From Escherichia coli (GTDB lineage: Bacteria > Pseudomonadota > Gammaproteobacteria > Enterobacterales > Enterobacteriaceae), in the NCBI RefSeq assembly GCF_003334765.1, contig NZ_QOWT01000002.1: a stretch of 64,000 nt of DNA; one strand, given 5' to 3'. Of the stretch, positions 37,301 through 40,300 are shown one piece after another. Position numbers: made by a program. How positions within the stretch are numbered: position 1 is the first letter of the stretch; every line of letters begins with the position of its first letter.

Positions 37301-40300
37301 TGCTGCGCTATTGTTCTCATCGACTAACACGCCTCCGTTCTGGCTGTAGCTGTCATCAACAGAAATATCAATAAGATAGGGAGCCGTCACGCTATTGGTA
37401 TATATCGCCCCGCCATAACCTTCGGCAGTGTTATTTGTAAAGGCAGTGTTATTTACTATCGTATAACCTGAAGGATGCTTGCTGTCGCTATTATTATCGG
37501 TAACATCGATTGCCCCGCCATCGCCATCACTGTAACTTGTTGATGTATATGCCTGGTTGTTATCAAAAATAACATCACTTAAATAAACGTCATTATTAAT
37601 GGTATAAATTGCGCCACCTTTGCCATCATTAGCGATGTTATTGCGAAACATGGCGTTAGTGACACGTAAATCGACGGCACCAGTATCGTTAGTACCAGAA
37701 GAATAGATTGCGCCACCATAGCCGCCTGCGACGTTACCGGAAAAAATAACATCAGTAAGATTCAGCGTTGAGTTTTCTTTAGCAAATATGGCCCCGCCGT
37801 TATTATATTCTCCTGTAACGGTGTTATTGGCAAACAGAGTCATTCCAGTTTCATTTTCTGGTAATAGTGAAAATTCCGCTCCTTGTTGCAAAAATACGGC
37901 CCCACCGCTGGCGTTATTGGTCATATCCGAAAAAACCAGCCATTGCCCATCAGCGATACTCCAGTCCTGCGTAATGCCTGAAAGGCTTTGCCTGCTGGCC
38001 TGACAACTCGCTTTGACATCATATCCCTGGCATGAATCAGTGACCGCCGCGACACCGTTAGCAGAGAAAAGAGATGCAATCATTGACGGGAGTAAAGATA
38101 AATACTCCTTGCGTAGAAAGATAATCCGCATATTAATCTAACCATCATTTTCTATAAGACGGCGTATTTAATCGCATTATACGATATGGAATATCTTTCT
38201 TTTGTAAATTGTTCAACCCGGTGCAATGGCTATTTTGTTATTATTTGATGAATAATATCAGTGCGTCATAATTCAAGTTAATAACCTTCAGGGATATCAG
38301 TTATATTTAAACTAAATTAAAGTCATGAATAATTTTCTTATAATATAAGGTAAATTAACAAAATGGCTTAGCATTTAACAATAACCGAATAGAAAACAAC
38401 CATTTCGCCATCAACAATCTCTTACATTCGCTTATATATTGACCACAACTGATACATCAGATTATGTGATGACTCGTGCTTAGATCAATTTTTGCAATCA
38501 TTAGCAAAAAGATTAATAAACCATCTATATCAATTTATCTAACCTATTATGCCGTTCAAGAAATCGCCGAACAGTTATTTTTAACAAATTTTTCTCTTCC
38601 CATTGACTTTCCCGGACACCTTGTCTGACCTAAGGTGCGCGAAAGCCACTTTTTCCTTCCTGAGTTATCCACAAAGTTATGCACTTGCAAGAGGGTCATT
38701 TTCACACTATCTTGCAGTGAATCCCAAACATACCCCCTATATATAGTGTTCTAAGCAGCTTCCCGTACTACAGGTAGTCTGCATGAAACTATTGCGGAAA
38801 GAATTCCAAAAACAGGTACGACATACATGAATCAGAATCTGCTGGTGACAAAGCGCGACGGTAGCACAGAGCGCATCAATCTCGACAAAATCCATCGCGT
38901 TCTGGATTGGGCGGCAGAAGGACTGCATAACGTTTCGATTTCCCAGGTCGAGCTGCGCTCCCACATTCAGTTTTATGACGGTATCAAGACCTCTGACATC
39001 CACGAAACCATTATCAAGGCTGCCGCAGACCTGATCTCCCGTGATGCGCCGGATTATCAGTATCTCGCCGCGCGCCTGGCGATCTTCCACCTGCGTAAAA
39101 AAGCCTACGGCCAGTTTGAGCCGCCTGCGCTGTACGACCACGTGGTGAAAATGGTCGAGATGGGCAAATACGATAATCATCTGCTGGAAGACTACACGGA
39201 AGAAGAGTTCAAGCAGATGGACACCTTTATCGATCACGACCGTGATATGACCTTCTCTTATGCTGCCGTTAAGCAGCTGGAAGGCAAATATCTGGTACAG
39301 AACCGCGTGACCGGCGAAATCTATGAGAGCGCCCAGTTCCTTTATATTCTAGTTGCCGCGTGCTTGTTCTCGAACTACCCGCGTGAAACGCGCCTGCAAT
39401 ATGTGAAGCGTTTTTACGACGCGGTTTCCACATTTAAAATTTCGCTGCCGACGCCAATCATGTCCGGCGTGCGTACCCCGACTCGTCAGTTCAGCTCCTG
39501 CGTACTGATCGAGTGCGGTGACAGCCTGGATTCCATCAACGCCACCTCCAGCGCGATTGTTAAATACGTTTCCCAGCGTGCCGGGATCGGCATCAACGCC
39601 GGGCGTATTCGTGCGCTGGGTAGCCCGATTCGCGGTGGTGAAGCGTTCCATACCGGCTGCATTCCGTTCTACAAACATTTCCAGACAGCGGTGAAATCCT
39701 GCTCTCAGGGCGGTGTGCGCGGCGGTGCGGCAACGCTGTTCTACCCGATGTGGCATCTGGAAGTGGAAAGCCTGCTGGTGTTGAAAAACAACCGTGGTGT
39801 GGAAGGCAACCGCGTGCGTCATATGGACTACGGGGTACAAATCAACAAACTGATGTATACCCGTCTGCTGAAAGGTGAAGATATCACCCTGTTCAGCCCG
39901 TCCGACGTACCGGGGCTGTACGACGCGTTCTTCGCCGATCAGGAAGAGTTTGAACGTCTGTATACCAAATATGAGAAAGACGACAGCATCCGCAAGCAGC
40001 GTGTGAAAGCCGTTGAGCTGTTCTCGCTGATGATGCAGGAACGTGCGTCTACCGGTCGTATCTATATTCAGAACGTTGACCACTGCAATACCCATAGCCC
40101 GTTTGATCCGGCCATCGCGCCAGTGCGTCAGTCTAACCTGTGCCTGGAGATAGCCCTGCCGACCAAACCGCTGAACGACGTCAACGACGAGAACGGTGAA
40201 ATCGCGCTGTGTACGCTGTCTGCTTTCAACCTGGGCGCAATTAATAACCTGGATGAACTGGAAGAGCTGGCAATTCTGGCGGTTCGTGCACTTGACGCGC

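What the first reader, a model, noticed from the sequence alone, without database searches (positions are those of the whole stretch)
38132..38826. About 695 bp AT-rich divergent control region between yfaL and nrdA with DnaA and NrdR boxes
Seen directly: an unusually long, AT-rich intergenic region lacking any convincing ORF, carrying a perfect DnaA box TTATCCACA plus a second 8/9 box and two palindromic NrdR boxes next to the nrdA start. The distal 450 bp (38132-38600) is unexplained by nrdA regulation alone and could hold the yfaL promoter, silencer (H-NS-type) sites, or an unannotated small RNA.
Basis: partly seen in the sequence, partly recalled or inferred. Interest (0 to 1): 0.35.

Follow-up and report, generated by a model that had tools for sequence, protein, structure and literature searches.

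The report
Known yfaL–nrdA control region of E. coli
This is the well-studied E. coli spacer holding the promoter of the essential ribonucleotide reductase genes, joined to an AT-rich, H-NS-bound stretch that arrived with the neighbouring adhesin gene yfaL, so it is real but ordinary and already described.

Summary
Between yfaL (34385-38131, minus) and nrdA (38827-41112, plus) lies a 695-bp spacer that differs from E. coli K-12 MG1655 by one base. It carries a perfect DnaA box, an 8/9 second box 12 bp downstream, and the classical NrdR boxes.

Comparison with 78 Enterobacterales loci splits the spacer in two:
- About 38527-38826 is the ancestral nrdA control region. It holds an upstream block, the DnaA boxes, the sigma-70 promoter, the NrdR boxes and the leader.
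- 38132 to about 38526 (28% G+C, the lowest in the window) exists only where a yfaL homologue is wedged between ubiG and nrdA. It diverges as fast as yfaL.

Published work already covers the distal part. It is one of 78 H-NS-bound "promoter islands", and an RNA polymerase SELEX peak there has a predicted yfaL promoter. DnaA, Fis, IciA, NrdR, H-NS and HusR are reported regulators of nrdAB.

I found no support for a small RNA. The annotated ORF ypaB is not conserved.

The one modestly new point is that E. coli's DnaA-box position is atypical for its family.

Verdict: already known, low interest.

The parts
34385..38131 (-). yfaL (AIDA-I family autotransporter adhesin YfaL/EhaC), the divergent left neighbour
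   Evidence: ORF. RefSeq annotation of matching DNA.
38132..38526 (.). Distal AT-rich segment: the 5' flank of the yfaL cassette and the published H-NS-bound 'promoter island'
   Evidence: G+C is 0.28, the lowest in the window. All 9 promoter-like sites of the scan fall at 38181-38488, against 3.5 expected. Nothing here is conserved in yfaL-less species. Divergence is yfaL-like at 75-92% between E. coli alleles. The stretch lies within promoter island 2342143_534 (window about 38083-38616), with H-NS in all studies compared.
38181..38208 (-). Candidate yfaL core promoter TTTACA-16-TATCGT, about 50 bp upstream of the yfaL ATG
   Evidence: Found by the scan. The -35 (TTGTAAA on the plus strand, 38202-38208) is invariant in five yfaL-bearing loci. 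This is a prediction only.
38461..38488 (-). Second candidate yfaL promoter TTGATC-16-CATAAT, the one predicted under the RpoD genomic-SELEX peak
   Evidence: PMC3946193. The -35 region (GATCAATTT) is conserved in the five loci and the -10 is not. It contains the only GATC of the spacer, at 38483.
38418..38446 (.). Conserved sub-block TTACATTCGCTTATATATTGACCA, containing a perfect match to the Fis consensus at 38430-38444
   Evidence: Alignment A3; Fis pattern search. Binding was not tested.
38527..38610 (.). Ancestral nrdA upstream block: a GATCAA-like motif, CGTTCAAGAAATCGCC, T-tracts and ATTGAC
   Evidence: Conserved in 60-90% of 78 Enterobacterales loci, whether or not yfaL is present. Homology to yfaL-less relatives starts here.
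38612..38627 (.). Published HusR (YnfL) box CCGGACACCTTGTCTG
   Evidence: PMC12844172, Table 1; sequence read.
38647..38662 (.). Published HusR (YnfL) box CACTTTTTCCTTCCTG
   Evidence: PMC12844172, Table 1; sequence read.
38665..38673 (+). DnaA box 1, TTATCCACA (perfect)
   Evidence: At a fixed upstream position in 24 orthologous promoters. DnaA regulation of nrdAB is reviewed in PMC8203912.
38677..38685 (+). DnaA box 2, TTATGCACT (8 of 9 against TTATNCACA)
   Evidence: D6.
38685..38713 (+). nrdAB sigma-70 promoter: -35 TTGCAA (38685-38690), 17-bp spacer, -10 TATCTT (38708-38713). The transcription start is expected near 38717-38720.
   Evidence: Read from the sequence. The -10 region is highly conserved. 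A CRISPRi study notes that ypaB contains the nrdA promoter. The start position is recalled or inferred, not measured here.
38703..38719 (.). Classical NrdR box overlapping the -10, called 'box 0' in the 2025 nomenclature
   Evidence: Sequence; conserved. Reported affinity above 6000 nM for boxes 0+1 (PMC12176259).
38734..38749 (.). NrdR box CCCCTATATATAGTGT (classical box 2, 2025 'box 1')
   Evidence: 90-100% conserved across 78 loci; PMC12176259.
38765..38780 (.). Newly described NrdR 'box 2', GTACTACAGGTAGTCT, with a central AG, 15 bp after the previous box
   Evidence: The position is inferred from the description in PMC12176259 and the sequence. Only the 'AC' at 38767-38768 is strongly conserved.
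38556..38699 (-). Annotated ORF ypaB (47 aa), lying over the DnaA boxes and the nrdA -35; probably not a real gene
   Evidence: Annotated. The ATG is lost in the B2-like allele and there is an in-frame stop in E. albertii. No Shine-Dalgarno sequence was seen upstream of the start.
38813..38818 (+). nrdA ribosome-binding region CAGGTA
   Evidence: More than 90% conserved in 78 loci.
38827..41112 (+). nrdA (class Ia ribonucleotide reductase alpha subunit), the right neighbour

Best explanation
The 695-bp spacer is the known E. coli yfaL-nrdA divergent regulatory region. It is a composite of two parts with different histories.

(1) The right-hand part, about 300 bp (roughly 38527-38826), is the ancestral nrdAB control region. 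It contains:
- an upstream block conserved across Enterobacterales, which the literature associates with Fis and IciA activation and now with HusR;
- two DnaA boxes just upstream of a weak sigma-70 promoter, through which DnaA activates or represses according to its level and bound nucleotide;
- NrdR operators in and after the promoter, giving repression by dATP/ATP-loaded NrdR;
- a leader of about 110 nt.

(2) The left-hand part, about 395 bp (38132-38526), is the 5' flank of a roughly 4.3-kb insertion relative to most Enterobacterales. The insertion comprises REP elements, yfaL and this flank, and sits between ubiG and nrdA. This flank is extremely AT-rich and packed with promoter-like hexamers. 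It acts as an H-NS binding platform (a 'promoter island') that keeps the autotransporter gene yfaL silent. H-NS is also a reported repressor of nrdAB, but whether it acts on nrdAB from this platform is my inference. The flank contains the yfaL promoter or promoters.

Shown here: the anatomy, the conservation pattern, the insertion junctions and the allele divergence. Taken from the literature: protein binding and regulatory effects. Inferred: which of the two candidate yfaL promoters is used, and that H-NS bound to the distal part is what modulates nrdAB.
For: Identity of the locus.

Insertion:
- ubiG lies directly upstream of nrdA in 68 of 80 loci, with a spacer of about 345-510 bp.
- yfaL homologues occur only in E. 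coli, E. albertii, Pseudocitrobacter, Enterobacteriaceae strain RIT691 and Rahnella bonaserana.
- Homology to yfaL-less relatives resumes 282 bp upstream of nrdA in RIT691 and 410 bp upstream in Rahnella. In E. coli it resumes at about 38527-38553.
- The left junction is at 34244, followed by REP elements.

Ancestral block and operators: the conservation profile and alignment A2.

Distal part behaves like yfaL: identity between alleles is 75-92%, against 97-100% in nrdA and 63-88% in the yfaL passenger region.

AT-richness and promoter-like density.

Literature:
- promoter island with H-NS occupancy and association with foreign genes (PMC3661553);
- RpoD SELEX peak with an H-NS site and a predicted yfaL promoter (PMC3946193);
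- DnaA, Fis and IciA as activators, and H-NS and NrdR as repressors, of nrdAB (PMC4009431; PMC8203912);
- NrdR boxes (PMC12176259);
- HusR (PMC12844172).
Against: No transcription-start or binding data could be examined directly. The Cappable-seq supplement was truncated when stored, and the SMRT-Cappable-seq supplement had no entry.

The original Fuchs-laboratory papers and the H-NS/nrd paper were not held. I therefore could not place the published 'upstream AT-rich sequence' or '45 bp inverted repeat' needed for cell-cycle control of nrd. They may lie in what I call the yfaL flank, which would give that flank an nrdA function as well.

The H-NS high-affinity motif is not clearly enriched: there are 2 near-matches in the spacer, and window-wide 82 matches against 62 expected.

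The yfaL cassette and this spacer are present in all 5426 complete E. coli genomes. In E. coli it is a fixed core feature, not a recent island.
Confidence: 0.8

Rival explanations
1. The distal AT-rich part is mainly a far-upstream nrdAB element: the cis-acting AT-rich sequence and 45-bp inverted repeat reported to be required for cell-cycle-dependent nrd transcription. On this view it is not mainly a yfaL-side silencer. This does not exclude the main explanation.
For: Papers with exactly these titles exist (Sun et al. 1994; Jacobson and Fuchs 1998), cited in PMC2892513. The distal part contains several imperfect inverted repeats, for example 38301-38348 and 38480-38542. It has sub-blocks conserved among yfaL-bearing taxa, including a perfect Fis consensus at 38430-38444. 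The spacer length is held at 695-702 bp in E. coli, E. albertii and Pseudocitrobacter although the sequence has diverged.
Against: Nothing upstream of about 38527 is conserved in the 68 loci where ubiG abuts nrdA, so any such element would be specific to the Escherichia lineage. The coordinates of the published elements could not be checked, because the papers were not held.
Confidence: 0.25
2. The region encodes an unannotated small RNA or a real small protein (ypaB or another short ORF).
For: ypaB is annotated in RefSeq. 'ypaB' RNA signal is reported to rise 9.6-fold after AZT treatment (PMC11228462). It is also reported as HusR-dependent in stationary phase (PMC12844172). The ORF stays open in Pseudocitrobacter and in a divergent E. 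coli.
Against: There was no Rfam match down to E=10 apart from a chance snoRNA hit. There were no terminator-like sites and no 120-nt window with a fold z-score below -2 on either strand. The ypaB ATG is lost in the allele carried by about 1000 genomes, where RefSeq does not annotate it. There is an in-frame stop in E. albertii and no Shine-Dalgarno sequence. ypaB overlaps the nrdA promoter, so its constraint and its RNA signal are explained by nrdA. No ORF of 30 aa or more lies wholly within the distal segment 38132-38526. Promoter islands are reported to yield only abortive oligonucleotides.
Confidence: 0.05
3. The distal part is functionally neutral spacer DNA left by the yfaL insertion. 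It is AT-rich only because of mutational bias and has no regulatory role.
For: It is the fastest-evolving part of the spacer, at 75% identity between alleles for 38200-38299. It tolerates an IS1 insertion in a natural isolate.
Against: Five yfaL-bearing loci share islands of invariant sequence (TTGTAAA; TTACAT.CG.T.A.AT.ATGA.CA; ATCAA.TTT) and a conserved spacer length. Published RNA polymerase and H-NS binding points the same way.
Confidence: 0.07

Closest known systems
The E. coli K-12 nrdAB promoter region (DnaA boxes, Fis and IciA sites, NrdR boxes; work of the Fuchs, Beckwith, Sclavi, Torrents and Sjoberg/Logan laboratories)
   Same: It is the same locus. The spacer differs from MG1655 by one base, and all the described motifs are present at the expected places.
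   Different: Nothing of substance. The annotation of NrdR boxes has shifted since the classical description.
Promoter islands of E. coli (Panyukov and Ozoline 2013), i.e. H-NS-silenced AT-rich upstream regions of horizontally acquired genes
   Same: The distal part is literally entry 2342143_534 of their Table 1. It shows the defining AT-richness, density of promoter-like sites and linkage to an acquired gene.
   Different: It abuts the promoter of an essential, highly regulated housekeeping operon. Silencing therefore has to stop within about 150 bp of the nrdA promoter.
The nrdA promoter of other Enterobacteriaceae and Erwiniaceae (Citrobacter, Enterobacter, Raoultella, Kluyvera, Erwinia, Pantoea and others)
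   Same: The upstream block, NrdR box and ribosome-binding site are shared.
   Different: In those 35 loci the consensus DnaA box lies 14 bp after the NrdR box, usually with an inverted partner about 30 bp further on. This places it inside the leader rather than upstream of the -35.
Phage P1 region next to hot/upfO, and P1-like plasmids
   Same: They carry a copy of the nrdA promoter segment with both DnaA boxes and the -35. The P1 record itself notes 94% identity to an E. coli region with two predicted DnaA boxes.
   Different: There are no NrdR boxes and no nrdA downstream. The context is different: the P1 late promoter LPhot and small upf ORFs.

Membership tests
DnaA-regulated promoter | At least one 9-mer matching TTATNCACA near the promoter | tested here: met
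   A perfect TTATCCACA at 38665-38673 and an 8/9 box at 38677-38685, 12-20 bp upstream of the -35.
DnaA-regulated promoter | The box is conserved in orthologous promoters | tested here: met
   A perfect box lies at a fixed upstream offset in 24 loci. In 35 other loci a perfect box is present but downstream of the NrdR box.
DnaA-regulated promoter | DnaA binds and changes transcription | not testable with these tools
   From the literature only: PMC8203912 summarises Tuggle and Fuchs 1986, Augustin 1994, Gon 2006 and Olliver 2010.
NrdR regulon operator | Two 16-bp partially palindromic NrdR boxes separated by 15-16 bp | tested here: met
   Boxes are at 38703-38719, 38734-38749 and 38765-38780. 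The middle box is 90-100% conserved. The 15-bp linker to the third box matches the description in PMC12176259.
NrdR regulon operator | Nucleotide-dependent NrdR binding | not testable with these tools
   Published dissociation constants are 96-113 nM for boxes 1+2 and above 6000 nM for boxes 0+1.
H-NS-bound promoter island | A stretch of at least 300 bp with an excess of overlapping promoter-like sites | tested here: met
   9 sites against 3.5 +/- 1.6 expected in 37900-39000, all within 38181-38488.
H-NS-bound promoter island | Markedly AT-rich relative to the genome | tested here: met
   G+C is 0.28, about 5 sd below the window mean and the lowest in 64 kb.
H-NS-bound promoter island | Association with a horizontally acquired gene | tested here: met
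   yfaL and its flank are absent between ubiG and nrdA in 68 of 80 Enterobacterales loci. Insertion junctions were mapped.
H-NS-bound promoter island | H-NS occupancy and suppressed productive transcription in vivo | not testable with these tools
   Listed as H-NS-bound in all ChIP-chip data sets compared. The motif scan here was inconclusive.
Small RNA gene | A discrete transcription unit with a terminator, and/or a conserved stable structure or known family | tested here: not met
   No Rfam family, no terminator-like site and no z-score below -2.
Protein-coding gene (ypaB) | An intact ORF with start codon preserved in close relatives | tested here: not met
   The ATG becomes CTG in the B2-like allele and there is a stop codon in E. 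albertii. It is not annotated in that allele.

The most novel reading that the evidence does not exclude
E. coli's textbook nrdAB promoter layout has tandem DnaA boxes upstream of the -35, giving an activator/repressor switch. This layout is not the family norm.

Among the loci sampled, all other classifiable Enterobacteriaceae and Erwiniaceae have an inverted pair of consensus DnaA boxes inside the leader, right after the NrdR operator. Only Escherichia and Pseudocitrobacter share the upstream layout seen in Yersiniaceae, Pectobacteriaceae, Hafniaceae and others. Both of these genera also carry the yfaL cassette.

The most novel reading is that the Escherichia promoter was replaced or re-modelled in connection with acquisition of yfaL. 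If so, DnaA control of ribonucleotide reductase works by a different mechanism (roadblock or looping in the leader) in most close relatives, possibly including Salmonella, which was not sampled here.
Probability: 0.35. Interest if true: 0.4.

Novelty: already known. Interest (0 to 1): 0.12.

Why it matters
The locus controls the essential enzyme that makes DNA precursors and couples its synthesis to replication initiation, so it matters biologically. It has, however, been dissected since the 1980s, and the distal AT-rich part is already catalogued as an H-NS-bound promoter island.

This check adds three things:
- A clean evolutionary partition of the spacer into an ancestral nrdA part and a yfaL-cassette part, with mapped junctions.
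- Evidence that the annotated ORF ypaB is probably spurious.
- The observation that the position of the DnaA boxes differs between E. coli and most of its family. This is worth a note for people who generalise from the E. coli model.

Tried and rejected
- Rfam search at E up to 10. The only hit was a chance snoRNA match.
- Terminator scan: none found.
- Sliding-window RNA fold z-scores on both strands: none below -2.
- The 13-nt inverted repeat 38115-38127 / 38188-38200, which could pair the yfaL start region with its leader. Rejected because the arms are not co-conserved in the B2-like allele.
- A 15-codon upstream ORF (38783-38830) overlapping the nrdA ATG. Rejected because the 13-bp deletion in the B2-like allele breaks its frame.
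- ypaB as a real gene: rejected.
- H-NS high-affinity motif scan and Fis consensus scan. Neither is informative statistically at window scale, although one perfect Fis match falls in a conserved sub-block.
- Search for paralogous copies of the distal part in E. coli genomes and plasmids. It is single-copy, and the few 'plasmid' hits are chromosome-sized or chromosomal fragments.
- Transcription-start data. The Cappable-seq supplement is truncated before this coordinate, and the SMRT-Cappable-seq supplement has no entry.
- Original nrd cis-element papers, the H-NS/nrd paper, Gon 2006 and Babu 2017: not held.
- Recent transfer of the promoter between Escherichia and Pseudocitrobacter. Not supported, because nrdA coding identity (87%) is the same as with other Enterobacteriaceae.
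Full report
**What is there**

The window is E. coli chromosome. The 695-bp query matches all 5426 complete E. coli genomes and differs from K-12 MG1655 (2344170-2344864) by one base. The flanking ORFs are yfaL (34385-38131, minus strand) and nrdA (38827-41112, plus strand).

G+C is 0.337 for the spacer and 0.283 for 38132-38552, against 0.512 for the window. The 400 bp starting at 38165 are the most AT-rich of the whole 64 kb.

- The perfect DnaA box TTATCCACA is at 38665-38673.
- The second box, TTATGCACT, is at 38677-38685 and matches 8 of 9 positions of TTATNCACA. It forms a 12-bp-spaced tandem repeat with the first.
- The classical NrdR boxes are at about 38703-38719 and 38734-38749.

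RefSeq places a 47-codon ORF, ypaB, at 38556-38699 on the minus strand, on top of the DnaA boxes and the nrdA -35. It is not a convincing gene:
- Its ATG is CTG in the roughly 90%-identity allele carried by about 1000 genomes, where it is not annotated.
- It has an in-frame stop in E. albertii.
- It has no ribosome-binding site.

**Comparative anatomy**

I fetched 80 Enterobacterales loci encoding NrdA. In 68 of them ubiG lies directly upstream of nrdA on the same strand, with a spacer of about 345-510 bp.

A YfaL homologue is wedged between the two genes only in five lineages:
- E. coli
- E. albertii
- Pseudocitrobacter
- Enterobacteriaceae strain RIT691
- Rahnella bonaserana

The right-hand junction of the insertion can be located in each case:
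- Homology between the E. coli spacer and a divergent E. coli, Pseudocitrobacter and E. albertii starts at 38553, 38545 and 38484 respectively.
- RIT691 resumes homology with its yfaL-less relatives 282 bp upstream of nrdA.
- R. bonaserana resumes homology with four yfaL-less Rahnella species 410 bp upstream of nrdA.

On the other side, E. coli homology with yfaL-less species ends at 34244, at the 3' end of ubiG. REP elements follow.

A conservation profile over 78 loci shows nothing conserved to the left of about 38527. To the right, the conserved features are:
- a GATCAA-like motif (38527-38536);
- CGTTCAAGAAATCGCC (38553-38568);
- ATTGAC (38602-38607);
- the DnaA box;
- the -10/NrdR region;
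- the NrdR box at 38734-38749 (90-100% conserved);
- the ribosome-binding site.

The spacer is therefore a composite. About 300 bp are ancestral nrdA control DNA. About 395 bp belong to a roughly 4.3-kb yfaL cassette.

The distal part evolves like yfaL. Between the K-12-like and B2-like alleles, identity runs as follows:

| Segment | Identity |
|---|---|
| yfaL passenger region | 63-88% |
| 38200-38299 | 75% |
| 38600-38699 | 97% |
| nrdA | 97-100% |

Among the five yfaL-bearing Escherichia/Pseudocitrobacter sequences, the distal part is barely alignable. Even so, it keeps its length (695-702 bp) and a few invariant islands:
- TTGTAAA at 38202-38208. This is the -35 of a predicted minus-strand promoter, TTTACA-16-TATCGT.
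- A block at 38418-38446, which holds a perfect Fis consensus.
- GATCAATTT at 38483-38491.

**What the literature already says**

The distal part is entry '2342143_534 yfaL(-)/ypaB(-)' in the list of 78 E. coli promoter islands. On window coordinates this is about 38083-38616. It is marked there as associated with foreign genes and as H-NS-bound in all ChIP-chip studies compared. Such islands are reported to bind RNA polymerase but to yield almost no productive transcripts (PMC3661553).

Genomic SELEX with RpoD holoenzyme found a peak in the yfaL/nrdA spacer. The authors list an H-NS site and a predicted yfaL promoter, TTGATC-16-CATAAT (PMC3946193). This is the site at 38488..38461 in my scan.

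For nrdAB, the reported regulators are:
- IciA, Fis and DnaA as activators, and H-NS and NrdR as repressors (PMC4009431).
- DnaA acting as activator or repressor according to its level and bound nucleotide (PMC8203912).
- A 2025 study that reassigns the functional NrdR site to the 38734-38749 box plus a new box 15 bp downstream. The box over the -10 binds only weakly (PMC12176259).
- A 2026 study that adds HusR (YnfL) boxes at 38612-38627 and 38647-38662 (PMC12844172).

[quoted passage not shown] They were not available to me, so I could not place those elements on the sequence.

**Small RNA or small protein?**

I found no support:
- no Rfam family;
- no terminator-like site;
- no 120-nt window with a fold z-score below -2 on either strand;
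- no ORF of 30 codons or more wholly within the distal segment 38132-38526;
- shorter ORFs lack conservation.

**Most likely mechanism**

The right-hand 300 bp work as described in the literature. An upstream activating block feeds a weak sigma-70 promoter, read from the sequence as -35 TTGCAA at 38685-38690 and -10 TATCTT at 38708-38713. The DnaA boxes abut the -35. The NrdR operators cover the -10 and the early leader.

The left-hand 395 bp are the regulatory flank of yfaL. They form an AT-rich H-NS platform full of competing promoter-like sites. This keeps the acquired adhesin gene silent. H-NS is also a reported repressor of nrdAB, but whether it acts on nrdAB from this platform is my inference.

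The following are inferred, not shown: which candidate yfaL promoter is used, whether the flank also serves nrdA, and how silencing is stopped short of the nrdA promoter.

**A side result**

Across the loci, the DnaA box sits in one of two places:

| Layout | Position of the DnaA box | Loci | Taxa |
|---|---|---|---|
| Upstream | 71-81 bp upstream of the conserved NrdR box | 24 | Escherichia, Pseudocitrobacter, Yersiniaceae, Pectobacteriaceae, Hafniaceae, Budviciaceae, Xenorhabdus |
| Downstream | 14 bp downstream of the NrdR box, usually with an inverted partner about 30 bp further on | 35 | All other classifiable Enterobacteriaceae, and Erwiniaceae |

The remaining loci were not classified by my pattern. 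Pseudocitrobacter is an Enterobacteriaceae genus. E. coli's layout is thus atypical for its family, and the two Enterobacteriaceae genera that have it also carry yfaL.

However, RIT691 has yfaL together with the downstream layout. In addition, E. coli and Pseudocitrobacter nrdA coding identity (87%) is no higher than with other Enterobacteriaceae. A recent joint transfer is therefore not supported, and the history remains open. Salmonella was not among the loci.

**Verdict**

The feature is real and correctly read by the first stage, but it is one of the better-known regulatory regions of E. coli. The 'unexplained' distal part is already catalogued. Novelty: already known. Interest: low.

Noticed in passing
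window 38589-38703; L002 3001-3115; L085 (phage P1) 722-777: About 235 E. coli plasmids carry a 115-bp copy (about 78% identity) of the nrdA promoter upstream half. It has both DnaA boxes and the -35 intact, but no NrdR boxes and no nrdA. They are P1-like phage-plasmids. The P1 GenBank record already notes '94 pct identical to Escherichia coli DNA region containing two predicted DnaA boxes' next to hot/upfO.
   Followed up: yes
L006-L083, 330 bp upstream of nrdA; window 38665-38749: There are two nrdA promoter layouts in Enterobacterales. In 24 loci, including E. coli, the DnaA box is upstream of the -35. In 35 loci (most Enterobacteriaceae and Erwiniaceae) an inverted pair of consensus DnaA boxes lies in the leader just after the NrdR box.
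   Followed up: partly
L025 about 2719; L058 about 2591; window 34244 and about 38527-38553: A yfaL-type autotransporter gene sits at the same place, between ubiG and the conserved nrdA upstream block, in Escherichia/Pseudocitrobacter, Enterobacteriaceae RIT691 and Rahnella bonaserana. The spacer is about 680-706 bp each time. This suggests either an old cassette lost many times, or repeated exchange through the flanking conserved genes.
   Followed up: partly
window 38795-38807: The B2-like E. coli allele (about 1000 complete genomes) lacks 13 bp (CGGAAAGAATTCC) of the nrdA leader, about 20 bp upstream of the start codon. The effect on translation or mRNA stability is unknown.
   Followed up: no
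L086 about 330-1100 (window about 38160-38170); L001 4025-4722: IS1 insertions occur in natural isolates. One lies about 30 bp upstream of the yfaL ATG in strain 23CRST009, where yfaL is also a pseudogene. Another lies inside yfaL in strain EC3.
   Followed up: partly
window 34258-34384: REP/BIME-type palindromic elements fill the 127-bp convergent gap between ubiG and the yfaL stop codon. yfaL-less species have a simple ubiG terminator hairpin there.
   Followed up: no
L004 (E. coli strain SCPM-O-B-8794) 1-2750: A genome labelled E. coli carries a strongly divergent yfaL allele (73% amino-acid identity over residues 2-764). Its distal spacer is not detectable by BLAST and resembles E. albertii more than K-12, while its nrdA promoter is 97% identical.
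   Followed up: partly
window 6664-7417 and 59490-59943: Two other AT-rich stretches occur in the window, with 400-bp G+C minima of 0.32 and 0.34. They were not examined.
   Followed up: no
window 25327-25335: This is the only other perfect DnaA box (TTATCCACA) in the 64-kb window. Its context was not examined.
   Followed up: no
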